Below the pieces are notes generated by a model. It was not told where the DNA came from, ran no database searches, and saw nothing but the letters and a program-made list of their open reading frames with translations. The position numbers and the translations under genes are program-made. A stretch of 63,110 nt of DNA, filler included, from Rhabdomonas costata (Eukaryota): NCBI GenBank assembly GCA_019059605.1. It is 53 parts of 53 records of this genome, joined end to end, with 100 filler letters (N's around TTAATTAATTAA, not from the genome) between each part and the next. Parts side by side here need not be neighbours in the genome. Positions count along the whole stretch, not along the records: positions 5,961 to 7,052 come from JAHMHO010029018.1; positions 7,153 to 8,244 come from JAHMHO010029019.1; positions 8,345 to 9,436 come from JAHMHO010029020.1; 50 more parts are not named here. One strand, given 5' to 3'. Shown one piece after another: positions 2,384 through 55,423 of this stretch; position 1 is the stretch's first letter; each line of letters starts with the position of its first letter.

Positions 2384-3475
2384 GTGTGTTGTGCCCTATT
2401 GACCAGCTGGTGCTCCCTCTGGACCCACCGGTCTCGGATTTGCTGAACGGCGGGTGGTTCATGGGCAACTACTTCCTTTCTCAAGAAACGCCGTCTGTGA
2501 ATGTGGTGGGCCTTCTTGAGATTTCGGACCAGAAAACCTTCCCGCGCTCGGTAGCGGGGCAGCCGATGGACCTCGTGCTTGGCCTTCGCAGCACGGGTGT
2601 CACTCCAGGCTGGGTGACGGTCTCTGTTGTTGCAAACCAATATTTCCAAAACGGGCAGTTGTGGTGGAGTCTCGGGGCGTTTAACGGCTCCTCACTGTGC
2701 CCTCTGGACTTTAGCCGACTGTACTTCGTTTGTGAGTTGACTAACGTGCAACTAAACTTCTGGGCGGACACCAACGTGCATTTCTTTTTCACCCCGAACT
2801 CCTACCTCGTGGGCTCAATTGCCCTTCAGTTCGTGCTGGACGCAGATGGATGCAGCAGAGTCACCGCGGACCTGACGCCCCAGGTGACTGTGCTGGGTCT
2901 GTTCTCCTTGAACAGCACCCGTGTCAGCCCCGCCACGCCCGTTGCTGGGCAGCAGTTGCAGGTCATTTTGGGGTTTATCAACGAGGCGGTGTTCTCCGGC
3001 GTCAGCTTCCAAATGATGGCTGCGGAAGCAACGAAGTTTCATTCGTTGGAGATCAGTTCGGGCCCAACTGTTGTCAGGGATATTGTCATTCCAGTGAGCT
3101 ATGTTCTCCCCGGGACGCTCGTTCTGGTCGGAGACAGTCCGACCAACTTTTGGCCTTGCGTCCAAGATGCCAGTGGGGCGGTGTTTTTGTGCAATATTAC
3201 TTCCATTCCTTTCCCCACCGGGCTTCTGACAGATGTCTACCTGTGGTTTACACCCAACATCAGCGTTGTTAACATGTTGACTTTTGTTGGTGCGCAGGTC
3301 ACCTCAACTGGTGGGTACTTCGCTGACCTGACTTGCCCGATTCCTGTCACGCTGTATTCCACCTTGATTCAGGATCCCTCGTTCCTTACGGGAATGAATG
3401 TGAGTGCTGAGGCTGGCGAGCTCCTGAATTTCTCCTTTGCAGTTCGTACCCTCGACGTGAATTCCACCAACCCCC
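2384..3475 (+). CDS. Fragment of a large, probably extracellular protein with tandem ~135-aa beta-sandwich (DUF11/Ig-like) repeats
   Basis: The frame is open across the whole contig. Internal repeat: AGQPMDLVLG..C..FVCELTNV..VHFFFTPN..ADLT versus AGQQLQVILG..C..FLCNITSI..VYLWFTPN..ADLT, with a third unit starting AGELLNFSF. Several N-x-S/T sequons. Confidence 0.7.
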
Positions 3476-4768: not shown

Positions 4769-5860
4769 CGCCCGTGTGCTGATGTACAACCCCGAGCTGG
4801 GCCGCGAGGGCGGGATGGTCCCGCTGTGCACCCCCGAGGAGATGAGCCTGCGCTGTGCCCGCAGCCTGGTCCGGGCCGGGATCCAGCACCTCCACGCCAC
4901 GCCACCCCACGCCTACGTCGCTCTTCCCACGCTGTACCCCGCGGTGAAGCTGACGGACCACATGGGGTGGCCCCTGCCCTCCTCCGCGGTGCCCGCGAAC
5001 CCCTTCCTGGTCCCCCTGTGCCAGGGTGTGGAGGTTCTGGCAGTGTGCCCCTCCTCCAGAACTCCAGAAGAGCTGGAGCTGAAGGCCACTGTGCCTTCGC
5101 AGCTGAAGAGCCAGGCTGACGTCCTGCTGGCGAAGCTTGACGCGGCCTTTCTGAATCTCTCTATTACAGTGGCCTCCAGCAAGCCCCCGCCTCCCTTGGG
5201 GGCACCCGTCGCACCCCCGCCGCCAGTGGAGCAGCCTCCTGGAATGGCTCCCTTGTTGGTTCCCCGAAGCTTTTCCGGGCCAGTGGCCAGCCCTGCTGTA
5301 GGGCCTCCTCCTGTCGGTGGTGGTCCTCCCGGGTTGGGGTTTGGAATCCCCGGGTTTCCACCTCTATCACCACCTATACCCATAAAAGCCCTGCCAGTGA
5401 ACATACCGCAGCCCTCTTTTGGGGTGTCTCCAACACCGACCCCTGCGACAGGAGAGCTTGGCACCGCTGGCACGGAGGCCTACCGGCAGATTCTCATGCT
5501 GGACGTTTGCCAGGCTGAGCTGCAGCTAATGCGGAAGAAGAACTTCCTGCTGCGCCAGCGCGACCTCATCGAAAAGCGCCGGCGGTCCGCCAGGGAGACT
5601 CTCTTGGCCCTTCAAAAGGCCCCTGCGGTTGGGTCGGCACAACTCATCCCGACCTTACCGGCCCCCGAACCCCGTCCCGAGAAGCTCCGCCGCCGCACCA
5701 AGGCCTCCTCCCCAGAGAAGAAGGTCAAGAAGCGGAAGCCTTCCCCTGAACCGGTGAGTGATAGCTCCACCGATGCGTCCCGAAGCCCACGACCAGGCCA
5801 CCGCAACAAGCACCGCTCGTCTACAAAGCGGTCCGCTAAGGGAGGTGACCACCCCCCCAC
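4769..5860 (+). CDS. Uncharacterised protein fragment with a Pro-rich middle, a coiled-coil-like segment and a basic/Ser-rich tail
   Basis: GC-rich frame open across the whole contig; no recognised domain. Confidence 0.55.
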
Positions 5861-6073
5861 NNNNNNNNNNNNNNNNNNNNNNNNNNNNNNNNNNNNNNNN
5901 NNNNTTAATTAATTAANNNNNNNNNNNNNNNNNNNNNNNNNNNNNNNNNNNNNNNNNNNNGTGGGGTGGTAAAAAAAGAAATAATTTATTACATTCAATA
6001 ATAAGTAAATATGGTTATGAGAAAGGTGTTGATTTTTTAAATAATATTATTAGAATGGTTACAAATTTTAATT

Positions 6074-6945
6074 TTCTTTTCGTTTCTTTTGTTATAACAA
6101 TATCTCCAATATGTGCAGATGAACCATTTTGTAAATTAAAATTTGTAACCATTCTAATAATATTATTTAAAAAATCAACACCTTTCTCATAACCATATTT
6201 ACTTATTATTGAATGTAATAAATTATTTCTTTTTTTACCACCAACTGCATCTTTTGCTATAATACCATCTTTTATTTTTCCATTTTCAATAATTAAAGTA
6301 AAATTATCTCTTACTAATTTCAAATTTATATTTTCTGGTATAATATATGATATTAAATCTCTTCCATTTACTGTCTTATTTTTATCAAAATATATATTTT
6401 TCTTTTGTATAGACGCTGCTGATAATAAATTCATTGCTGTTTTATATGATATTTCCATATTACCACGAGACATCAAATATAAACCAATTAAACCATCTTG
6501 GACTACAGATATAATTGGAGAACTAGATGCTGGTGTAATTAATTGATACATTACATTTGTAATATTTTTTAATTCAATTTGTGATTGAATATTTTGAGGG
6601 ACAATCATATTCATTTCATCAACGTCAAAATCTGCATTATATGGTGGTGTTACTGCTATATTTAATCGAAATGTTGCAAGATGTTCATTTCTAATAATTT
6701 TTACAATATGTCCCATCATTGACTGCATGTGTAACGTGGGTTGACGATTAAACAACACAATATCACCGTCTTGTAAATGTCTTTCAACAATATCACCATA
6801 TTTAAGTACAATTGTATGTTTTCCATATCGTAAATCAATGGGCATTTGTTTCCCATTAAAACGTTCAACAGGTATAACGTAATTTGCACCGGGGTATATA
6901 TCTCTTCCGTTTCTTACATGTTGTTCAAGTCGTTTTATATTGTAT
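6074..6945 (-). CDS. DNA-directed RNA polymerase largest subunit (Rpb1-like), internal fragment, probably from a giant virus (Nucleocytoviricota, Mimiviridae-like)
   Basis: Motifs YPGANY, GDIVERHLQDGDIVLFNRQPTLH..SMMGH, TFRLN..VTPPYNADFDVDEMN and VVQDGLIG. Intronless and very AT-rich, unlike the host contigs. The ORF-track ends (6015-6073 and 6950-7049) are fold-back duplications, not real coding sequence. Confidence 0.9.
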
Positions 6946-8872
6946 GATGTTACAATATAAAACGACTTGAACAACATGTAAGAAACGGAAGAGATATATA
7001 CCCCGGTGCAAATTACGTTATACCTGTTGAACGTTTTAATGGAAAACAAAAANNNNNNNNNNNNNNNNNNNNNNNNNNNNNNNNNNNNNNNNNNNNTTAA
7101 TTAATTAANNNNNNNNNNNNNNNNNNNNNNNNNNNNNNNNNNNNNNNNNNNNTTTTGTTTGTGGAATTGTGTCGGTCATGTGCTTCTGGGCGAGGGCCCA
7201 TCCTCCCTTGCTTCCTCGAAATGCGATTCGCCGAAAGGTGCGCGTGCGTGCGTGTGCGTGTACAAGCGATGGTATAGAAGGGCGGTATTGTCCCCCGACC
7301 CCGACCTCGACTCCGAAAGCTCCAGAAGATGAGGTGCGAACCCGGTGCCTCTGCTCTGCGTATAGGAAGTGGGTTTTTCCACCCACCCTCGTCCTACTCA
7401 CCATCCTTTTTTCCCTCCTCGATGCGCGATGTGATGCTGGTGGCGAGCGCTGATGTGACTGTGCTGACACGCCAACGGCATTCGGGTTGGGGGCGAACAC
7501 CCCCCATTCCCCTCCGAGGGGGTGCACAGTGGAGATTGCCACCCAGCTGTGTGTGTGCGTGTGTGCGTGAAGATCTGTGTGGTGTGGTGTTTGCCGCTGT
7601 ATGAGTAATTGCTGCGTGGAAAGCGGAGCTGACCCGGCGCCTTCCGCGTGCCTGCCAAGGGTACGAGGATTGGTACGAGGAGGGCTATGCCGCTCCTGGT
7701 CTGCGGGCTTTCCCCCCTCTCTATTCCCTATTGCAACCCCCAGCTCTGTGTCTGTAGGCTTTTTCTTTGCCCTGTAACTGACCTGAGCCCTTTACCGTCA
7801 AAATGGAAAGAGATGGGTTGAGGGACGTCCCTCCCCGGCTGTTCAGAGGACAGCCCTGTTCTTAGTGTGGTGCTGTGTTGTTTTTTCTTGTTTTGGGTGG
7901 CGGCGGGTAAGCGAGCTGCAGAGTTCCACGACATTCGTGACATAGTGCGACGACATTCGACGTCTTCGGTGCCAGTGGACCCGCAGCCCACCAGGGACTT
8001 TGAACTTGCGTAAACCCTACTTGATTTCCCATGCTGTCCCTGAAGCCGTTGTCCTTCCATCCGCGTACTTCCAACTGCTGGAGCAGCTGTGCTAAGATTC
8101 GGCTTTCCCCTCATGTGCCGTGCAGTGGTGATGGGGCCTTTTCTGGACTCTGTTTATTTTGTCAGGCAGATCTTGTGCTCTTGTCTTTTTTTTTCTTTCT
8201 TCTTGGAGGTGTCCGTCACGATGGCGACAAGATCACCAACAAACNNNNNNNNNNNNNNNNNNNNNNNNNNNNNNNNNNNNNNNNNNNNTTAATTAATTAA
8301 NNNNNNNNNNNNNNNNNNNNNNNNNNNNNNNNNNNNNNNNNNNNTTGTTGTGGTTCTTTGTGTGATGCGAGTGTGCAGTTTTTCATTGTGTAAAAATCTG
8401 TCAAATTCTTGTTTTCTCTGTGCCGACCACTTTGCATGGTGACTCCGGTTGGAACGTGTGTTGGAACGTCATGTCTGTGCTACAAGGGGTGAATTCTGCA
8501 TGTTGACGTTGCGCTATTGTACCCTTTTTTCTTGAGGGACGAGGTGGTTAGCTCTGTCTGTTCATCCTCAGTCTGGGTGGTGACATTTTTCTGGAGAGGC
8601 TGAGATAAGAGCCCGAGCAATCCGGCCGGCATGGGAAGGAAAAAGGGCGGCGACTTCTACGACGACAAAAGCGCTGAAGCAGCACGTGAAAAGACCTCCC
8701 GAGCCGCAACTACCAGTCAGTGGTTGGTTTCTAATGTTTCGTTACCTTCGTCATCAATTCTGTCTGCAGTGGTGCAGGGAAGGGCCAGCAGCCTTTAGTG
8801 CCTCTTGGCCCCCCGCCCTGACTCTCCTTTCTCTCTTACTCCAACGCATCGTCCCTTGCCCTCAAGTAACTA

Positions 8873-9540: not shown

Positions 9541-9598
9541 TTTGTGAAGCTTCTTCATTGGTACACGTGCACGTGTACCAATGAAGAAGCTTCACAAA
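9541..9598. repeat. Perfect 58-bp palindrome at a contig start (probable amplification fold-back)
   Basis: TTTGTGAAGCTTCTTCATTGGTACACGTG is followed immediately by its reverse complement. Confidence 0.85.
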
Positions 9599-11817: not shown

Positions 11818-14656
11818 CACNNNNNNNNNNNNNNNNNNNNNNNNNNNNNNNNNNNNNNNNNNNNTTAATTAATTAANNNNNNNNNNNNNNNNNNNNNNNN
11901 NNNNNNNNNNNNNNNNNNNNCCGCATAGAGACCATTTTGCACAGGATGAGGACCAGGCCAGAGGTTGTTTCCACAAATAGTGCCGTAAAGTTGAATTATC
12001 TTGCAGCAGGTTCACACAAAAGCAACCTTGTTGCGACTTTTGCTTGGGTTATTGGCCGAATTATTTGTTCAAGATGGCACACGGAGGCGCGTCTCGCTAC
12101 TAGTTATTTCATGCCTCTAACACAAAGCCATCGGTAGTAACGAAGTATTTACAAATTGCAGGGACACAGTCAGCGCTGGCTGATGACATGCACTACTGGG
12201 CATTCCTTGTTGAAAAATCACAGTGGCAATCACAGATCACAAGTCAGGTCATGAGAGTTCAGCTTCAAGGATGCTACTGGAAAGTTAATACATCGCTTGT
12301 TATAGGAATCAACATGACAATTCACTTCACCAACAAGAAACAACCATACCCTACTTTCTGAGTTATCAAGGAGATTGTTTCAGGAGGTCATGTACTTTCC
12401 ATGTGCTATCCAGGTAACGTTCCACGTGAGTCCACGTGGATTTAAGTTTCATTATTGCAACGTACTCCACCATGAACCAACACACTTGGACTTCCAGTTG
12501 CGGGGGAGTTACACTGGCTGAAAAGGCCGGAATCCTTGGTGGGAAGTTGCGGTTACAGCGCGGACTAAGATGGTATATGATCCTTTTTCGATCACCGCAT
12601 GCTCGCCAATAATGAGCAGGTGAAGTCCCGCTCATTTCTTTTGCCTTTATTGGTCCTGGGCCGTGTCAAAGAGTTTCAACGCTCGCCGCCAACCTCCTTC
12701 AACACCTCCGTTCCCTTTCCAATGGCGGATCCTGATTCACACAGTGGATGGAATATGGACCAGAGCTCAACCCCTGTCCAAGGGAATTCAGCAGGTCAAG
12801 GACCCGGATCTGATCCTAATGTAATCAAGTTCTTCCAAAGCTTGCCCTTAAACGCCTAACCTACTGGTGAGGGCTTTGCCATTCTGGAATAGCTCAGAAC
12901 GCTCAACGCGGCAACGGCCGAAGCCCCTGATGGAAGGGGCAAAAAAAAAAGGGCAGAGAGCAGCCCGAGTAGAGATCGCAAGATCGCACGTTACCGCTCA
13001 CACCACCAACCCNNNNNNNNNNNNNNNNNNNNNNNNNNNNNNNNNNNNNNNNNNNNTTAATTAATTAANNNNNNNNNNNNNNNNNNNNNNNNNNNNNNNN
13101 NNNNNNNNNNNNGTGGGGTGGTGGTTGTGAACAAGTACTTTTAAGGGCCCCTCCCTGAGACAGGGTGTAGGGTGTTAAGAGGAGATGCACGGGTCCCCTG
13201 GGATTGGAATAGAAGACTTTGCAGGGGGTTAGGTGGTGATGCACGAGTTCCCTGGTATTCCTACACAGTAATTTGAAAAAGTTGGTCACTAATGCTTGGC
13301 ACTTGCCCCGGCATATGGCCTTCCATGTAACACACGCCTTGGTGAAGCACACCTTGGAATGAGACATAGTTGTGAGGGAGGGGGTGACGAGGAGTGACGT
13401 GCCTGGTCCAGCCTCTGAGCCGTTCTGGGGAGCTTCGCACAGCACCGCTCCAGAGCCGCCGTGACGTCTTGTAACTGCCGCAGCAGGTGCACGGCGTACT
13501 CCGCTGGGAGCTCGGAGCTGCTCACCCCTTCAGCCATGCGTAACGATCCGAGTGAGAGGATCGGAAAATCGGAAGCTCGAACCCAAACTTCGCCGGACAG
13601 GAAGTCCCTCCCAACACACAACCACACACAGGGGAAGGGAACAAAGAAGCTCCAAAAACGAACGAAAAATAAAGGCTGCAGAAACCGTGCGCGGAAGAGG
13701 ACGCACGCCGTTCCACACGTTTCACAAAAAGAACAGGGCTGGTCGATTCCGTCACCCCTGGCAATCCCCAACGGCGCTGACAAGGAAACGGAGCTTTCCA
13801 GCTTCGATTTTTGCGCGAGCACAGCCCAACATGCTCTTCAGGTTGAGCTGTAGTTTCCATGGCTCCATCTCCCCTCATTTCTACCATCCTTCCCGTAAAA
13901 AAATCCTTCTAACCGGTGTGACGTTCAAACTTCGCTGAGTGCATGACTGCCGCCCACCACTTGCACAACCCATTGCTGCACCTACAACTCACAGCTTCAC
14001 AAAATTAATCACCCGCATTCGTAATCGCTCTCACCCAGTAAAACACCTAATTCCAATTTCTATACCTTCCAGTAATCATTTGCCAAGGATGCTTCCACTC
14101 ATCCACTTTTCTCTGCTGAAAACAGAATGGTCCGACGGCTCCGTTCATCCCGACCAGCAGAGAGTTTCGGTCGTTTCGAGTAAAACCCCAACTGAACCAC
14201 CCCCNNNNNNNNNNNNNNNNNNNNNNNNNNNNNNNNNNNNNNNNNNNNTTAATTAATTAANNNNNNNNNNNNNNNNNNNNNNNNNNNNNNNNNNNNNNNN
14301 NNNNGTGTTGGGGTTTCGCAAATCGTCTTGCAGCCAACGGTTTACGGTTTTCAGAAGGCTCTCAAGGTTGGCACATCTCATTCAAATATTGAGCCTGAAA
14401 CTCGTAGCCTGAACTACATAGTTGGTGTGGTGAGTCTGGTGGCTGGGGCTCTGGTTCCGTGAAGGGTTCGCTTGTAGGCTTTGCACTGCAAATACTGATC
14501 CGATGTCTTTTTTTTGTCATATTTTGGGTGGTTTTCGCAGCGAGGAGGATCGGCCAAGAGAAATGAGCAGCCACCGGTGTGAAATGCTCCGTTTCTGTTT
14601 TCTCTGTGTGTTTCGCTCTTTTCTTCCTGCGCTTCACAAGCGTGTTACAGCTTGTT

Positions 14657-18961: not shown

Positions 18962-19145
18962 CTGCGAGCACCGCNNNNNNNNNNNNNNNNNNNNNNNNNN
19001 NNNNNNNNNNNNNNNNNNTTAATTAATTAANNNNNNNNNNNNNNNNNNNNNNNNNNNNNNNNNNNNNNNNNNNNGTTTTGCGGCTCACTATTTCACAGGT
19101 ATGAACCCCAGAAAGACAAATTGAAGAAGATCATTTCCGAGATAA

Positions 19146-19937
19146 GCAAAGTTCCGCTCATGGAATCTTTGTCAATCTCGGAAATGATCTTCTTCAATTT
19201 GTCTTTCTGGGGTTCATACCTGTGAAATAGTGAGCCACAGGAGACAAGAGAAGCCCTCTTCCACCTCCCTTTATCGTCCCCCAGCTTTTCGGCTTCCAAT
19301 CTACTTCAATTATCCAAATTTACTCGTTGCCATAAGCTTAAGCTTCATTCCTCCTTGCGAATGCAACTCTCTCTGCTGACTGAAAACCCGAAATAAACAT
19401 ACCCCAACGCTCGCAGAGCCACTTTGAGGTCCTTTGCTTCAATGGTACCAACACCTTCAGAATCCAGCAAGTTGAAGGCGGCACGCAAGTCAGCCTCTTG
19501 TTCTTCTGTTAGCTCATTCTGTAGCCTTTCGCTATTCGACGGCTTCGTTGGCTGAAGAAAGGTGTGATGATGAAAAAAAAAGCGTCAAAAAAGGCGAACC
19601 TTGGTGGTTTTCACCAGTGCCAGTACCTTAACTGTGCATAATGATAGATTATGGAGTTTTTTTTGCTGTAGTGCAACAGCACCTGGGTTTCGGCATGAGC
19701 TGAGATAAACCAACAACCGCCTGACAAACCAACAAGCACAATGTACAGAATTCCGGTACAGCAAATTTGTCTTTCTGATCATCCCCCCATGCAATATCGG
19801 TTTTCCACAGTGTGCAAAGGCTTTTCCCCACAAAAGATGGCGCCTCAAAAGGAAACTAATCTTATCGAGAGTTGTCTACTAAAACGGTATGTAGAATGAC
19901 AACACACCTTTTTGGCTGTCTTCGCAGGTTCAGTCAT
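19146..19937 (-). CDS. Centrin (EF-hand protein), 5' part, three exons (19937-19908, 19551-19403, 19219-~19146)
   Basis: [71 protein letters not shown]. Both GT-AG introns keep frame. Truncated by a fold-back at ~19082-19143. Confidence 0.92.
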
Positions 19938-20950: not shown

Positions 20951-22042
20951 AATTTACGCTGCAAGAGCAAAGGTACCACCACTATGGAGAGAATCCGGAC
21001 CTGTGTCCGGGCAGGTCCGGGCAGTGTAGAGGAAGCGTAGGGCGCAGAGGATGAGAATAGAGTTGGAGGAATAGCAGGCCACAAGCATAATGCTCATACC
21101 GATGCTATAATGAGTGTGTGTAGGACAGACGGTGTGTGGCTCTCCTTTACTTACACGTTCGCCTGGATGCAGAGGGAAGAGTGCTTCTTCCCCTCGCATT
21201 GACCACAAACAAGCAAAGAAATCAGGCAAAGACCGCCCATAGAAGAGCATGAACGTGGCGAACTCACAGTGCCCCTGGCAAACGCGGTGTAAGGGGGTAG
21301 AGAAGGTTCCGAGTCCCCAGTTTGGGGGTTGAGGGGGGGGGCGCATACACACCCCCCANNNNNNNNNNNNNNNNNNNNNNNNNNNNNNNNNNNNNNNNNN
21401 NNTTAATTAATTAANNNNNNNNNNNNNNNNNNNNNNNNNNNNNNNNNNNNNNNNNNNNCCAGGCGGTGTGTGTGTGTGTGTGTGTGTCTGATGTGTGAAT
21501 CCGACGACATCCTGCGGGTGATTATTGGAGAAGTGCCAGAGACAGAAAAGAGGATGTGTGTGTACCTGCGTGTGGGTAAGTGGTTTCTCAGCCATCATCT
21601 CAAGTTTCCAGAGACTGGACCACACACCGGCTGACACTAGATTTGAGCCTTCACCCTTACGCCTGAGCCAGACCAGCGTGGTGGAATTCGGGCCGATTTC
21701 GTGGCCTGACAGTGTCAGTAGCAATTTTTTCCCGTCGCCCCTAGCTCGGTGGGTGGGCCGGTGGTGGGTGGTTGTTCCCCGCATCCGCATCTCTCTATCT
21801 TCCAGCTTGTGATCATGCCAGGAAGGACTTGTGGCACTCCACCGTCTCAGCCGTGCCGTAGTGTTTCCTCTTACTGTTGGGAATCGGCTCCTTGCCGTGG
21901 GCGTTTTGTGGCCGTGCGCTCTCACCGCTTCGCCAACCCCATGCGGGATCACTTTGCGCAAAAGAGCGCTATCTTTCAGCGCCTTGTCAGGGCATCTTAC
22001 TGATCGTCCAGAGTACCTAGACCAAAGCAAAACAAAACAAAG

Positions 22043-22239
22043 GTTAACTGCGCGGCACGGGTCTCCGCGCTGGCGAACGGGGGGCAGGTGCTACTCACCA
22101 CGGAGACGGTGCGGGCGCTTACGGAGCGGGTCACCGACGAGGCGTTGTTCGAGCTGCAGGACATGGGCTCGCTCAAGTTGAAGGGCATTTCCCGGGAACA
22201 GGGCATCCACCACCTCATCCCCTTGGCTCTAAGTGAGCG
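22043..22239 (+). CDS. Class III adenylate/guanylate cyclase catalytic-domain exon
   Basis: VNCAARVSALANGGQVLLT..MGSLKLKG contains the catalytic N...R motif and the ANGGQVL motif known from trypanosomatid receptor cyclases; bounded by AG and GT. Confidence 0.9.
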
Positions 22240-22648
22240 GTGTGCATGCTTTTGGTTGTGTCTGCGTGGGCGTCGGTGTAGACATAAAACCGATGCTGAA
22301 TGCACCATTGACGCTTCTCCAGGACCTGGAGGCGGAAAGACTTCCCCAACATCAGTGCCTCGGGCACGCAGTTTGTGTATGTGTGCGACTGTCTAGAAAT
22401 CGAATGTAATCTGAAGACCCGGCTCTGCGCACTGGGCTGTTTGCTCTGGCTGCAGCTACCGCGTTTGCGGCTGAATGGATGAGTCTCGCAGTCTGACTTT
22501 TGCACTTTTATGACTGGTGAGCTGACGGGGTAAGCAAGCCCCCCCACANNNNNNNNNNNNNNNNNNNNNNNNNNNNNNNNNNNNNNNNNNNNTTAATTAA
22601 TTAANNNNNNNNNNNNNNNNNNNNNNNNNNNNNNNNNNNNNNNNNNNN

Positions 22649-39281: not shown

Positions 39282-41765
39282 NNNNNNNNNNNNNNNNNNN
39301 NNNNNNNNNNNNNNNNNNNNNNNNNTTAATTAATTAANNNNNNNNNNNNNNNNNNNNNNNNNNNNNNNNNNNNNNNNNNNNTTTTGGTGGTTACAATGTG
39401 TTTTTTTTTGGTTTTCTTCTAACGGTTTTGTTTTGGGAATCGGAAAAGAGGAGTTTCAACTAACTTTTTACCGAATTAACAAAGTATTTTGTAAAGTAAA
39501 GTACGTATCCATAAACCGGGCCCTGAGCCCAGTACGAGTCCTGCCCAACCACCACCACTGTTTTTCACGTAGCAAATTGCCCAGTTTGCTAGCACAGCAA
39601 GCTTATTTATAAAGTCATTGGTAGTCTTTCGTTCGCAACGGGCCATTTGCAACAGACGTAGGCGGGGAGGGTTCCCCCGAAGCACGTCGGCCAAGTTGTT
39701 GCAACTTTAATTCCCTATTGGCCCTTTAGGCCACTTCCTTTCATCGGGCGTTTCGGGGATTTAAAATGATACCTTCCTGAAAATGTATCTTGCGGCTTCA
39801 TGATCTCATGCTGGATGAAATTCTTTTTGTCTGCGTCAACAAAAAAACCGAAGGTCTTTCATAATCAACTTCCTGAAAAAGTTTGCCGCTGGTGTAAAGA
39901 CTCTCTCTCAATCAGATGCTCCGCGTTGTGGCATGGTGCTCGGAAAACACCTGCTGTGCTTGCAGAATCTTGTGTTAAATTCGCGGCATCGCTTGCAAAG
40001 GAGCGGTCATTGAATGGCGTTAATTCCATTGGTCCGGGTGCCCTTCCTCATGGATAATTGGTCCACCCATTGATAGCCAGTCGCCTTTGGAATCACCCGT
40101 AAAGTGGGAAGTTGTGCGGCACAATCAATCATGACGTGCATGTTCTGTTGTTTTACCAGTCCCCTCAAAAACAAGATAGAAAGAACAAAAATGGCAATGG
40201 GTTACTACGGCCATGCCAACTGTTCTGTTTCAAACGCTGTTTCCGCTCAAAGGGCATAAGTACGACGCTGCGCTTTGTGTTACAACCGCGGCGGCTTGTC
40301 AAACCACTCCTCAACGGCTACCTCGGTTTCTGGTTCCTGGTTTTGATAAACGACGCCTTTACATTAGAAAACCCGGGGATTTATCCGCTTTCCGCGGATT
40401 GTTGAGCGAAGCCATTCCTTGTGGTGGGAAAGTGGGGGAAACCACACAAGCACACACAACACACACACCAACANNNNNNNNNNNNNNNNNNNNNNNNNNN
40501 NNNNNNNNNNNNNNNNNTTAATTAATTAANNNNNNNNNNNNNNNNNNNNNNNNNNNNNNNNNNNNNNNNNNNNGTTTTGGGTTACGAATCGATAAGAAAC
40601 CTCATCCCCCTCCCATCCCCCCCCATACCGGACAGTCCTTGCTGGACCCTGAGACGGTTGCCCGGCTTTTGCCTGCCCTCCGGGAGCTCCTGCAAGGACT
40701 GTCCGGTATGGGGGGGGATGGGAGGGGGATGAGGTTTCTTATCGATTCGTAATCCAAAATCCTTTGTCGTTTCTGGTTCTGCTGTGTGCACTGTCGGGGA
40801 TGGTCACCCAACATCCGCCAGGCCGGCACGGTGGCCTCGCGGCAGAATGTCTTCCAGGTATGAACGGTCTTTGGCAACGAAGGTGGCTGCATCCGACCCC
40901 CACCTGAAGTTGCAGTGGGGACAACAGTGTCCATTGCAAGCGAGTGACGTGGGAAGCAACAAGAAAAAGCAGAGTGCATCTACAGTGGGAAGCAAACGGG
41001 ACCACAAAGGGAACGCTGCGAGCAGTTAAATGGCAGTCCGGCTCCAGTGGATCAGCGAAATTCCTGTCCCACACTCCCGCCGACCCCTGTGAAACAGCAC
41101 CCAAGCCTTCTCGCGAGCAGCGTCGAATCCTTCCACATAGCTTTAACCCCCCAGATGCATGCTCTGCCTTAAAAGATTATGTCCTCCTGACGAGCGGCTT
41201 CTTTTAGGAGGGTGTGGTAATGGAATGGGACAGATGCTGACCAGACTCGGGCCGCTCTGCCCATGGCTGGGGAGGCCGTGGTGTTGCGTGCACGATGTGC
41301 CGCCCTGCATGCGCTGGCCTTCCTCTTCCCCCACCACCACCAGTGCCCCGCTAACTCCACCAGCGCTGCCGTGCTGGCAGCTCTGCAAAGGTCATGTGTG
41401 TGTGCGCGCGCAACACCAGCTAGCAGACATCTCAAGTAGAGAGATTTCCAGAGTATCGAGCCGTAGGCCCCAGTAACAGCCACGTCATCTGGGGAGTAGG
41501 TGACAATAATCTTTTGTGAGCACTGTGATCACTGGTGAAGTAGTGAAAGGGCATTCTCCGTAACGAGGGTGTTCCTGTTATCCCAACATCAGAAGTACAA
41601 AGAGGGTCCAAAGAGAAAGACCCCGCAACACCCCTGTTTTCCAGGCAACCCAGCAAAAAGACCCCNNNNNNNNNNNNNNNNNNNNNNNNNNNNNNNNNNN
41701 NNNNNNNNNTTAATTAATTAANNNNNNNNNNNNNNNNNNNNNNNNNNNNNNNNNNNNNNNNNNNN

Positions 41766-42106
41766 GGGTTTTGTTCAATGTAAAATGTTTGAAAAATATT
41801 TTTTACTTTTTCGATAATTTGTTCCATGACTGGATCTATTTCATGTGTCTGTCTGTTATAAACTGGAAGTACTTCTGTTTTGTTACTTCCAGATGACAAC
41901 GATGAATTATCTGATGAATCAGATGATGTATCAGGTGATGAATCAGTATCAAACGTTGTCTCTTCTTCGACTTTGTTGATTGGAATAATTTTTGTTGTCG
42001 GATAGTATGTCTGTTTTTGTGGTTGTGTTTGTTTAACTGATGGTCGAAATTCAAAATTCAAAGAATCTGTAGTCGTTTTACTGAGTGGTTCGTAAGTGCG
42101 AAACAT
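41766..42106 (-). CDS. Hypothetical protein (5' part), probable giant-virus early gene
   Basis: AT-rich intronless ORF open to the contig edge, with an Asp/Ser-rich stretch; AAAATTGA about 80 nt upstream. Confidence 0.65.
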
Positions 42107-42186
42107 TTTTATTTCTTATTGTTTGAATGTGTGTCTTCGTATGTGTAGACTAATTGTTTATATATATCATGTAACATAATAAATTA

Positions 42187-42194
42187 TCAATTTT
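42187..42194 (-). promoter_or_regulatory. AAAATTGA mimivirus-type early promoter motif (for the minus-strand ORF)
   Basis: Plus strand reads TCAATTTT in a very AT-rich intergenic spacer. Confidence 0.7.
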
Positions 42195-42250
42195 TATTTT
42201 TAAATATAAATAAAATTATTTGTTCTACCATCATAAAAGTCATTAGACAA

Positions 42251-42258
42251 AAAATTGA
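42251..42258 (+). promoter_or_regulatory. AAAATTGA mimivirus-type early promoter motif (for the plus-strand ORF)
   Basis: Exact octamer about 70 nt upstream of the ATG at 42327. Confidence 0.7.
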
Positions 42259-42326
42259 TTTTTTTATCTTTTGTATGTTAAATTAAAATATAATTTATGC
42301 TCTTATTGTAATTGAAGTTATTCACA

Positions 42327-42842
42327 ATGCAATACGCTATTCCGTCTAGTTCCGATTCGAATTTGAGTAATGAACAACAAACTACACAGTGTAGTATATG
42401 TAAATGGATCAACAAACAATATAAATCTATTACACAAAAGAAGAAAGTTCAATCAGAAATTACAGTACAAAACAAACTTACAAATTTATGTAGTTCGTGT
42501 GCATTTACACGATATGCAACAATTACAAACAGTAAAAATTATACAATGGCATCAATGGTTTCACCGAAGCTAACTGAACTATTGTATCAAATGTTAAATG
42601 AACAATACGGTAGTCCGGTAAAAACAAATTTCTGGCTTTCTGGTAAAAGTGAATTTAAACCAACAAAATGTAAACATGTTGTCATCTCAACATCAAATAT
42701 ATGTACATATCTTCAAGATGCTAAGAAGAGAAATCATTTCATTGAACATCTTAAATTGATGCAAACAGAATTTCTAAAACGGAAAACAGAATACATTGGA
42801 ATCTCTGATGATGATATTTCTAGATTAGCAGATATCAATTAG
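42327..42842 (+). CDS. Hypothetical protein with CxxC..CxxC pairs, probable giant-virus early gene
   Basis: Intronless AT-rich ORF of about 170 codons containing CSIC and CSSC. The stop is close to the contig end, so the gene may be truncated. Confidence 0.7.
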   Translation: MQYAIPSSSDSNLSNEQQTTQCSICKWINKQYKSITQKKKVQSEITVQNKLTNLCSSCAFTRYATITNSKNYTMASMVSPKLTELLYQMLNEQYGSPVKTNFWLSGKSEFKPTKCKHVVISTSNICTYLQDAKKRNHFIEHLKLMQTEFLKRKTEYIGISDDDISRLADIN

Positions 42843-42997
42843 ATGACACACCAACACNNNNNNNNNNNNNNNNNNNNNNNNNNNNNNNNNNNNNNNNNNN
42901 NTTAATTAATTAANNNNNNNNNNNNNNNNNNNNNNNNNNNNNNNNNNNNNNNNNNNNGGGGTGTGTGTTCTTCTTCTTATATATATGGATGGTATGG

Positions 42998-47118: not shown

Positions 47119-48259
47119 GTCGCGGAAGTACCCGTACATTCCCCACACGTTTACCACTCACATTTTGCTACGGGCTTTACTCCGCTCATGCTACGGGCTT
47201 TACTGCGCCCTTGATCCGAAGGGAAGGAGCTGCGTCGGGACTCACAGTACCGGATCGATGTGTGCTTTTTCTGTCTCTTGCCCCTTCTAGTGTTTCGCTT
47301 CGGGGGAGCGTGGCGGACGTTGGCGGGAGTCGGAAACTGTTTGAAAGGGGAGCAGAGTTAAGGATTGGTGTCACTTTCGATTTCTTTCCATGAGTCTAGG
47401 ACTTGACTGCGCAGTGCCACCCATTGTATCTCACTCCCTTTCCCCGTGCTTCCCTTCAAAATAAGGTATGTTTTACCCGAAAACACAGAAAATCGTTAAC
47501 GTTTCCAGCCGAAGGGTTTCCAACATATAAAATGTCTGGTCACGTGTTTTGCATTGAACCCGGATTGCCTTCTGGGTGGTATGCCCAGAATGCAATCCGG
47601 GTTCAATGCAAAACACGTGACCAAACNNNNNNNNNNNNNNNNNNNNNNNNNNNNNNNNNNNNNNNNNNNNTTAATTAATTAANNNNNNNNNNNNNNNNNN
47701 NNNNNNNNNNNNNNNNNNNNNNNNNNGTGGTTTTTTTACAATTTAAAAGGGGTGTCGTTTTGGGCGCCGTGGGGATACAATTACTCGTGCGCCCAGCTCC
47801 TCACTGCGGCAACAAAACCCCTCGTGGACCTACTGGAGGCCATCAAGTAGAGTTATTTCCACAACTGAAGCATGCTAATTAACCTGTGCATAGTTCCCTA
47901 ACCCTAGGAAGGTTGGGTGGTCTTGCTGTTGAGATAGGTTTGAAAAGGGTAGGCTTTTTATTTTTAAAAAAGGGTCTAGTTAATAACTCGCTAATAAACC
48001 TGACACGAATCCAGGGCGCAGACGAGTAACAAAAACCAAGTATACAAGGCGATCGTTATAAGTACAGGAAAGTCAGCAAGATAACAGAATACTCTCCACA
48101 AACGTTTCGGCAGCACCAGGAGAGAAAAAGAGAAAAAGCTTCGCTTACCGAAGCCACACACAAGTGCAAGTCCACAGTTACAATGGCTTGGTGGCTAGAA
48201 TGACAGTGGACATGTGAGGGTCCTCTCGGGCAATGTGGACGCCGGTGAAGCCCACACAC

Positions 48260-54770: not shown

Positions 54771-55423
54771 AACACCNNNNNNNNNNNNNNNNNNNNNNNN
54801 NNNNNNNNNNNNNNNNNNNNTTAATTAATTAANNNNNNNNNNNNNNNNNNNNNNNNNNNNNNNNNNNNNNNNNNNNGGGTGAGCCAGTGGCACCCGGATG
54901 CCAGCAGTCTGCCTTTTATTGCACGGACAGGGTACTCTTCCGGGTCTCCTCCAGGTGATCAAGAGAGGACTACCTTTTCTTTCCTTCCAACGAGCCCGTT
55001 GGCATCCGGGTGCCACTGGCTCACCACCTCGGTTGTCTGAATCTGCCCCAAGGCTCACCCGTGGTAGGCGTGAGTTTGCGTCCAGGGCATAGCGCGCTGA
55101 ATGATGCAGAGCTGATGACTTCCACATCAGATGATCCCGTATCTTCTGCGCCCATGAGCCCCACGTCTGCTTTGGTCTAACGCACACACTCGTTAATTAT
55201 CGGGGCGTTCCCCGAGCCCTCGTTCAGTGGCGTCCCGGGGTAATGGCCACCATTATGACTTTTGGGCCTCTAAGGTCTGCCCGGTGAGTCCCCAGATCGC
55301 TGGTTGCCTTAGCTGGGGTTGGTCTGCAGCCACTCATGCACCGTCGGTGTGGCTACGTGCCTTTTCTTAACACAAAACACGCACGATGGTAAGTATGAGC
55401 AGAAGCACAGGTCATGCCAGCAC

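What the first reader, a model, noticed from the sequence alone, without database searches (positions are those of the whole stretch)
5961..7052. Giant-virus-like RNA polymerase in a probable euglenozoan cell
Seen: an intronless, extremely AT-rich Rpb1-family fragment among GC-balanced, intron-rich host contigs. Knowledge: Mimiviridae encode such polymerases, and Bodo saltans virus (Klosneuvirinae) infects a euglenozoan. Inference: an infecting, ingested or endogenised giant virus, which could give a new virus-host link. VVQDGLIG in place of the Pol II VQDTL motif argues against a cellular Pol II.
Basis: partly seen in the sequence, partly recalled or inferred. Interest (0 to 1): 0.8.

Follow-up and report, generated by a model that had tools for sequence, protein, structure and literature searches.

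The report
Giant-virus RNA polymerase fragment among eukaryote contigs
A 0.9-kb AT-rich piece of a giant-virus (mimivirus-type) RNA polymerase gene was amplified together with DNA of an unidentified eukaryote, but nothing in the window shows whether the virus infected that cell, was eaten, was stuck to it or is built into its genome.

Summary
Contig 5961-7052 (26.6% GC, against 42.5-65.5% for 51 of the 52 others) carries an uninterrupted 292-codon minus-strand frame (6075-6950). It matches Rpb1 domains 2 and 3 (Pfam E 3e-41 and 2e-25).

It is viral-type, not cellular. The best relatives are CTD-less, roughly 1470-aa RPB1s from metagenomes (59% identity, 357 bits). Hokovirus HKV1 scores 261 bits, the best solved cellular Pol II 190 bits, and archaea reach at most 41% identity. 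In maximum-likelihood trees the fragment sits in a well-supported clade with Hokovirus and IMG/VR giant-virus contigs. An AU test rejects grouping it with the Pol II-like rows (p 3.5e-05).

Three caveats apply:
- Both contig ends are fold-back amplification artefacts.
- The catalytic motif reads NADFDVDEMN, while 268 of 268 relatives have G at that position.
- There is no host junction.

No other contig in the window shows giant-virus homology. A second AT-rich contig is an ORFan. The assembly, its reads and earlier notes were not available. The euglenozoan host is therefore untested, and infection, ingestion, contamination and endogenisation cannot be separated. This is a new member of a known kind, of modest interest.

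The parts
5961..7052 (.). AT-rich contig (1092 bp, 26.6% GC). It starts with a G/T-only stretch and ends with a C/A-only stretch, like most other contigs of the window.
6075..6950 (-). Genuine coding fragment of a giant-virus-type RPB1: 292 codons, Rpb1 domain 2 (from profile position 38 on) plus domain 3, with no stop and no intron.
6609..6638 (-). Catalytic metal-binding motif NADFDVDEMN. The Val codon GTT lies at 6621-6623, where every relative has Gly. The codons were read from the sequence printed.
6483..6506 (-). VVQDGLIG motif. Cellular Pol II in PDB has VQDTL here.
5965..6074 (.). Fold-back artefact: a 110-nt, 100% reverse-complement copy of 6133-6242. It reads as junk codons after KETKR.
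6951..7050 (.). Fold-back artefact: a 100-nt, 99% reverse-complement copy of 6845-6944, with a 6-nt loop.
41766..42857 (.). Second AT-rich contig (28.7% GC), possibly from the same virus but unproven. It carries two divergent ORFan genes (41766-42106 on the minus strand, 42327-42842 on the plus strand). A 220-bp intergenic region carries AAAATTGA on each strand (42187-42194 minus, 42251-42258 plus).

Best explanation
The contig is a fragment of the RPB1 gene of a giant virus. RPB1 is the largest subunit of the multisubunit DNA-dependent RNA polymerase. The virus belongs to the mimivirus-type radiation (order Imitervirales, inferred from the one named anchor, Hokovirus). In such viruses the enzyme transcribes viral genes in the cytoplasmic virus factory, which is established knowledge and not shown here.

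The fragment covers the active-site domain, with the three Mg-binding aspartates, and the pore domain. It belongs to an uncultured, divergent lineage known only from unnamed metagenome proteins (P0002-P0006 and P0017).

The viral DNA was physically present when the eukaryote's DNA was amplified. The contig has the same primer-like G/T and C/A ends and the same kind of fold-back chimeras as the other contigs. It shows no junction with host sequence.

The single G-to-V change in NADFDGDEMN is most simply an amplification or assembly error in a one-amplicon contig. This is inference. If the change is real, this copy probably encodes an impaired enzyme.
For: - **Family:** Pfam Rpb1 domains 2 and 3.
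- **Database ranking:** the best of 5.8 billion clusters is 59% identical and scores 357 bits. None of the 120 listed hits has the precomputed CTD family PF05001, many carry intein families, and their contigs reach 490 kb. The only organism-named hit is Hokovirus HKV1, at 47% and 261 bits.
- **Cellular polymerases score lower in PDB:** Pol II 158-190 bits, Pol III 141-152, Pol I 72-107.
- **Prokaryote genomes:** all 80 loci kept were archaeal or labelled uncultured archaeon, at 32-41% identity.
- **IMG/VR:** the best contigs are 50-51% identical, with loci of 26-31% GC. One of them lies in a 791-kb 'giant virus bin' that has NCLDV capsid matches.
- **Fragment tree (96 rows, LG+C20):** query plus P0002, SH-aLRT 92. 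The 7-row clade has 98. It is nested in a 49-row clade (99) with Hokovirus and 10 IMG/VR loci and without any Pol II-like row.
- **Full-length tree:** the nearest relatives are a 4-row clade (100) inside a 17-row clade with Hokovirus (99) and a 29-row clade (100) that excludes the Pol II-like rows.
- **AU test:** rejects query plus Pol II-like rows (delta lnL 134, p 3.5e-05).
- **No CTD in relatives:** the two tails printed (P0002, P0005) end about 50 residues after the GTG.C motif, like Hokovirus, with no heptads. The alignment shows the other four ending at the same place.
- **No decay:** the query differs at only 1 of 28 columns that are at least 97% conserved.
Against: - Only one organism-named viral anchor (Hokovirus) could be obtained.
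- Only one tree row (P0237) is a demonstrable cellular Pol II, with 7 CTD-type heptads. At least one of the rows grouped with it, P0213, carries an intein and may itself be viral.
- No Pol I or Pol III sequence was in the trees.
- The AU group was named after the tree had been seen.
Its viral nature rests on protein architecture and tree position.
- No other NCLDV marker was found in the window.
- The universally conserved Gly is replaced.
Confidence: 0.85

Rival explanations
1. Endogenised giant-virus DNA: the fragment is part of a viral insertion in the eukaryote's nuclear genome.
For: The G-to-V change at a position with G in 268 of 268 relatives could be early decay. Two of 53 same-length contigs are AT-rich, a share that a large insertion could also give.
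Against: There is no host-virus junction: both ends fold back onto viral sequence. GC is 26.6% and GC3 12%, against roughly 50% in the neighbouring contigs, so there is no amelioration. The 292-codon frame is intact in very AT-rich DNA, and only 1 of 28 conserved columns deviates. None of this excludes a recent insertion.
Confidence: 0.12
2. Bystander virus: a free or attached virion, ingested prey that was infected, or environmental or reagent DNA, co-amplified with the cell without infecting it.
For: The contig has the same primer-like ends as the host contigs, so it was in the same amplification. Only 1 of 53 contigs is demonstrably viral, which a single particle's genome amplified in patches could produce.
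Against: Nothing argues against it directly. It is indistinguishable from true infection with the data in the window.
Confidence: 0.4
3. Cellular RNA polymerase II (or I or III) gene of an AT-rich eukaryote, such as prey, a symbiont or a contaminant.
For: Identity to S. pombe Rpb1 is substantial (190 bits over residues 3-293). Viral RPB1s are Pol II-like in general.
Against: More than 120 database clusters score above the best solved cellular chain, and none has a CTD family. Trees and the AU test place the fragment away from the Pol II-like rows. The nearest full-length relatives have no CTD. The frame has no intron.
Confidence: 0.03

Closest known systems
Unnamed metagenomic RPB1 clade (P0002, P0003-P0006, P0017; Logan and ENA assemblies)
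   Same: They are 50-59% identical over the fragment and form a 7-row clade with it (SH-aLRT 98, FastTree 99). They share the insertions relative to yeast Rpb1 (VERFNGKQMP and RNEHLA regions) and the LHMQSMM signature.
   Different: At most 59% identical, so this is a different virus. These relatives read VLDGLIG or FQDALIG where the fragment has VQDGLIG. P0003-P0006 read PYGADFD where the fragment, P0002 and P0017 have PYNADFD. No organism, host or DNA context is known for them.
Hokovirus HKV1 RPB1 (ARF10760.1; assignment to Klosneuvirinae/Mimiviridae is recalled)
   Same: It is the only organism-named hit: 47% identity and 261 bits over the fragment. It sits in the same 49-row and 17-row clades. 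Its C-terminal ending is the same as in the fragment's nearest relatives.
   Different: It is not the sister group. Full-length identity of the nearest relatives to Hokovirus is only 39-41%.
IMG/VR giant-virus contigs (for example GVMAG-M-3300013133-4, GVMAG-M-3300023174-160, and the 482-kb contig of L003)
   Same: 50-51% identity, with GC of 26-31% where measured (L001-L003). One lies in a bin with NCLDV major capsid protein.
   Different: They fall in a neighbouring clade, not the fragment's own clade.
Bodo saltans virus, the one documented DNA virus of a euglenozoan
   Same: It is a giant Mimiviridae-type virus of a kinetoplastid (passages read in PMC8061765 and PMC6163669).
   Different: No BsV sequence was available in any tool output, so no comparison was made. 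The host of the present fragment is unknown.
Cellular Pol II Rpb1 (S. pombe 3h0g_A, K. phaffii 5x4z_A)
   Same: Same domains, same three catalytic aspartates, and alignable over residues 3-293.
   Different: 190 and 183 bits, against 357 for the best viral-type hit. It has VQDTL rather than VQDGL and lacks the two short insertions. The trees separate them.

Membership tests
Multisubunit RNA polymerase largest subunit (Rpb1 / beta-prime) | Rpb1 domain 2 and domain 3 profiles | tested here: met
   PF00623 E 3e-41 and PF04983 E 2.3e-25, both above the curated cut-offs
Multisubunit RNA polymerase largest subunit (Rpb1 / beta-prime) | Invariant metal-binding motif NADFDGD | tested here: inconclusive
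   The three Asp residues are present, but the Gly is Val (NADFDVDEMN). 123 of 123 motif-bearing relatives and 268 of 268 aligned relatives have Gly. Error and a real variant cannot be told apart.
Imitervirales (mimivirus-type) RPB1 | Branches with named or curated giant-virus RPB1s to the exclusion of cellular polymerases | tested here: met
   A 49-row clade (SH-aLRT 99) with Hokovirus and 10 IMG/VR loci. The full-length tree of the nearest relatives agrees. AU p 3.5e-05 against the Pol II-like grouping. There is only one named anchor and one proven cellular row.
Imitervirales (mimivirus-type) RPB1 | No C-terminal heptad-repeat domain | not testable with these tools
   The fragment ends at domain 3. 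Its six nearest full-length relatives end shortly after the GTG.C motif. None of them has three or more heptads, and the listed hits show no PF05001.
Imitervirales (mimivirus-type) RPB1 | Other NCLDV hallmark genes (MCP, PolB, A32, VLTF3) in the same genome | not testable with these tools
In the window, only 1 of 53 contigs matches 4.1 Mb of fetched viral-type loci, which are mostly RPB1 neighbourhoods.
Mimiviridae | AAAATTGA early-promoter motif upstream of genes (criterion quoted in PMC6163669) | tested here: inconclusive
   The RPB1 contig has no intergenic DNA. The second AT-rich contig has the motif on both strands of its 220-bp divergent intergenic region, 69-88 nt upstream of each start. 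32 of 5000 shuffles of the intergenic region and 398 of 5000 shuffles of the contig do as well. That this contig belongs to the virus is unproven.
Cellular RNA polymerase II | Clusters with CTD-bearing Rpb1; VQDTL-type motif | tested here: not met
Endogenous giant-virus element | Junction with host DNA, or decay (stops, frameshifts, amelioration) | tested here: not met
   Both ends are self fold-backs. The frame is intact, GC3 is 12% and 1 of 28 conserved columns deviates. A 0.9-kb fragment cannot exclude an insertion.

The most novel reading that the evidence does not exclude
The amplified eukaryotic cell was truly infected by, or carries a recent insertion of, a member of a divergent, uncultured Imitervirales lineage. 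That lineage (the P0002-P0006/P0017 clade) so far has no named member, no host, and no close relative in the IMG/VR scans made here.

The window would then give that lineage its first host. If the cell is a euglenozoan, this would be only the second DNA-virus link for that phylum after Bodo saltans virus.
Probability: 0.2. Interest if true: 0.6.

Novelty: new member of a known kind. Interest (0 to 1): 0.3.

Why it matters
Hosts are known for very few of the thousands of giant-virus lineages seen in metagenomes. A viral gene amplified together with one identified cell is one of the few culture-free ways to propose a host.

According to the 2021 Euglenozoa review (passage read), Bodo saltans virus is the only documented DNA virus in kinetoplastids, and infection of euglenids, diplonemids and symbiontids had not been verified experimentally. 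A real second link would be useful.

As it stands, the window offers one 0.9-kb marker fragment with amplification artefacts, no host junction and an unidentified host. It is a lead for screening the full assembly, not a finding.

Tried and rejected
- **Whole assembly, reads, earlier notes:** all unavailable. Binning of low-GC contigs, coverage and read-pair linkage could not be done.
- **Named references:** a cluster look-up of 10 hits and a second database search with Hokovirus gave no further organism names. Placement within Imitervirales therefore cannot be refined, and Bodo saltans virus could not be compared.
- **Cellular references:** the control genomes of the genome search are prokaryotes only. 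Only one CTD-bearing row appeared among the 150 representatives. A Pfam scan of the six 'Pol II-like' rows showed an intein in P0213 and no domains 6 and 7 in P0263, so that label is loose.
- **DNA context of the nearest clade:** IMG/VR and JGI metagenome scans with clade-specific patterns returned nothing closer than 51% or 48%. A scan with P0005 reached at best 40% over the full length, and a scan with P0002 found none.
- **Second AT-rich contig:** no Pfam family, no homologue, no tblastn hit at or below E 0.05 against 84 loci, and an atlas score of 0.75. Its origin is unresolved.
- **Host identity:**
  - The first Rfam scan found nothing at gathering score.
  - No tRNA was found.
  - The atlas search of a 363-aa host frame gave only weak DUF11-like leads.
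  - The cyclase fragment's best PDB hits are Trypanosoma GRESAG4 at E 0.014, which is not significant.
- **Rfam miRNA-like hits at 6864-7031 and 6022-6185:** these are the fold-back hairpins, not genes.
- one search was a mistyped reference, corrected.

Full report
**What the window is.** The 63,110 bases are not one locus. They are 53 contigs of 1084-1129 bp joined by runs of N around the word TTAATTAATTAA. The finding is one whole contig, 5961-7052. Its GC is 26.6%. One other contig (41766-42857) has 28.7%, and the remaining 51 have 42.5-65.5%.

Of the 53 contigs, 31 begin with eight G/T-only bases and 36 end with eight C/A-only bases. None shows the opposite pattern. I read these as remains of non-self-complementary degenerate primers of a PCR-type whole-genome amplification. 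A review describes such 'self-inert' primers for PicoPLEX-type kits (passage read in PMC9102663). That those primers are made of G and T is my recollection. Each contig then looks like roughly one amplicon. The AT-rich contig carries the same kind of ends, so its DNA was in the same amplification as the rest.

**The observation.** The minus strand is open across the contig. The translation of 6075-6959 (P0001, 295 aa) matches Pfam Rpb1 domain 2 (E 3e-41) and domain 3 (E 2.3e-25). It also matches 118 distinct PDB polymerase sequences.

Both ends of the contig are artefacts. Bases 5965-6074 are a perfect reverse-complement copy of 6133-6242, and 6951-7050 are a 99% copy of 6845-6944 with a 6-nt loop. 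Homology to Rpb1 stops exactly where these copies begin. My script found terminal fold-backs in 5 of 53 contigs, and it missed the imperfect right-hand one of this contig. The Rfam 'microRNA' hits below gathering score at 6864-7031 and 6022-6185 are these hairpins.

**Viral or cellular.**
- In a search of 5.8 billion protein clusters, the best hit (P0002, 1465 aa) is 59% identical at 357 bits. The next (P0003-P0006) are 53-55% identical.
- None of the 120 listed hits carries the precomputed CTD family PF05001. Many carry intein families. Their contigs reach 490 kb.
- The only hit with an organism name is Hokovirus HKV1, at 47% and 261 bits.
- The best solved cellular chains score lower: S. pombe Rpb1 190 bits, other Pol II 158-183, Pol III 141-152, Pol I 72-107.
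- In one genome per prokaryote species, all 80 loci kept were archaeal or labelled uncultured archaeon, at 32-41% identity.
- In IMG/VR the best contigs are 50-51% identical, with loci of 26-31% GC. One belongs to a 791-kb record that the tool calls a giant virus bin and that holds NCLDV capsid matches.

**Trees.** The exhaustive HMMER search found 7227 representative proteins at E 0.001 or better. Its best 150 reach down to 175 bits.

Among all 279 proteins fetched up to that point, only one (P0237) has three or more CTD-type heptads, with seven. It and five rows that group with it served as 'Pol II-like' rows. A later Pfam scan showed that this label is loose: P0213 has an intein and P0263 lacks domains 6 and 7.

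A 96-row tree of the fragment region (IQ-TREE quick, LG+C20+F+G4, 303 columns, 10 archaeal rows as outgroup) gave these results:
- The query joins P0002 with SH-aLRT 92.
- Both fall in a 7-row clade with P0003-P0006 and P0017 (98).
- That clade lies inside a 49-row clade (99) that contains Hokovirus and 10 IMG/VR loci and none of the Pol II-like rows. Those rows sit next to the archaeal root.

A 209-row FastTree tree recovered the same 7-row clade (99) but placed it near the base, which I attribute to the simpler model.

Holding the query together with the six Pol II-like rows costs 134 log-likelihood units (AU p 3.5e-05). The group was named after the tree had been seen.

A 44-row tree of full-length proteins (1492 columns) puts the query's nearest relatives (P0002, P0003, P0005, P0017; support 100) inside a 17-row clade with Hokovirus (99). 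That clade lies inside a 29-row clade (100, stem length 0.49) that excludes the Pol II-like rows.

The tails printed for P0002 and P0005 end about 50 residues after the GTG.C motif, like Hokovirus. The alignment shows all six nearest relatives ending at the same place.

I conclude, with about 0.85 confidence, that this is a fragment of a mimivirus-type (Imitervirales) RPB1. It comes from a divergent uncultured lineage. The order-level name rests on a single named anchor.

**The odd residue.** The metal-binding motif reads NADFDVDEMN. All 123 fetched relatives with the motif and 268 of 268 aligned relatives have Gly there. The Val codon GTT (6621-6623) differs from a Gly codon by one base, as read. 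Elsewhere the fragment looks healthy. It deviates at only this 1 of 28 columns that are at least 97% conserved, and 37 of the 269 aligned sequences also show at least one such deviation. An amplification or assembly error in a one-amplicon contig is the simplest reading. A real, probably crippling, substitution is not excluded.

**How it got there.** Nothing in the window decides this. There is no host-virus junction, no compositional amelioration (GC3 12%) and no frame damage. These argue weakly against an old insertion but not against a recent one.

A tblastx of all 53 contigs against 4.1 Mb of fetched giant-virus-type loci matched only this contig. Those loci are mostly RPB1 neighbourhoods.

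The second AT-rich contig carries two divergent ORFan genes.
- They have no Pfam family and no database homologue.
- They have no match in the viral loci and no atlas neighbour.
- The 220-bp intergenic region carries AAAATTGA once on each strand, 69-88 nt upstream of each start.
- A review lists this motif as a hallmark of Mimiviridae early promoters (passage read in PMC6163669).
- The enrichment is modest: 32 of 5000 shuffles of the intergenic region and 398 of 5000 shuffles of the contig do as well.
- The link to the virus is therefore a lead only.

**The host.** 'Probable euglenozoan' could not be tested. The first Rfam scan found nothing at gathering score, and no tRNA was found. The only Pfam hit among eight host frames was a cyclase fragment. 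Its best PDB matches are Trypanosoma GRESAG4 cyclases at E 0.014, which is not significant.

**What is known.** The 2021 Euglenozoa review states that Bodo saltans virus is the only documented DNA virus in kinetoplastids and that infection of the other euglenozoan groups had not been verified experimentally (passage read in PMC8061765). Searches for 'giant virus' with 'single-cell genomics' and 'Euglenozoa' (8 papers, listing only) and for 'diplonemid' with 'Nucleocytoviricota' (4 papers, listing only) showed no title claiming another such link. I did not read those papers, and their supplements are closed.

**Verdict.** The fragment is a new member of a known kind, and by itself it establishes no virus-host link.

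Noticed in passing
all contigs, e.g. 1192-1203, 2272-2283, 4769-5860: 31 of 53 contigs start with eight G/T-only bases and 36 of 53 end with eight C/A-only bases (0 and 0 for the opposite pattern). All contigs are about 1092 bp. This looks like untrimmed degenerate amplification primers, with each contig being roughly one amplicon.
   Followed up: partly
11993-13012 (-): Eukaryote-type SSU rRNA 3' part, scoring 80.4 bits when the contig is scanned alone (model positions 636-1831). It is far too divergent for a working gene. The universally conserved decoding-centre stretch and the 3' end carry many substitutions, mostly towards A/T. It is probably a decayed rDNA copy. It could help to identify the host if compared with an rRNA database.
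   Followed up: partly
41766-42857: Second AT-rich contig (28.7% GC) with two divergent ORFan genes and AAAATTGA on both strands of the intergenic region. The 171-aa product has CxxC...CxxC cysteine pairs.
   Followed up: yes
9541-9598, 19082-19236, 47537-47623, 54878-55025, 40603-40731: Further terminal or near-terminal fold-back (hairpin) chimeras in GC-balanced contigs. Several give sub-threshold Rfam microRNA hits on both strands. They are artefacts, not genes.
   Followed up: partly
22004-22393 (+): Fragment of a class III adenylate/guanylate cyclase catalytic domain (PF00211, E 8.8e-05). Its best PDB matches are Trypanosoma brucei GRESAG4 receptor-type cyclases, at only E 0.014.
   Followed up: partly
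2386-3474 (+) and 4770-5858 (+): Two GC-rich contigs are open in one frame over their whole length (363 aa each), so they are very probably coding, yet neither has a Pfam family. The second is proline-rich and low in complexity.
   Followed up: partly
proteins P0002-P0006 and P0017 (relatives, not in the window): The nearest RPB1 clade is unusual. It reads VLDGLIG or FQDALIG instead of VQDGL, and four of its six members read PYGADFD. P0002 has a strongly altered trigger-loop region. No close relative was found in the IMG/VR scans.
   Followed up: partly
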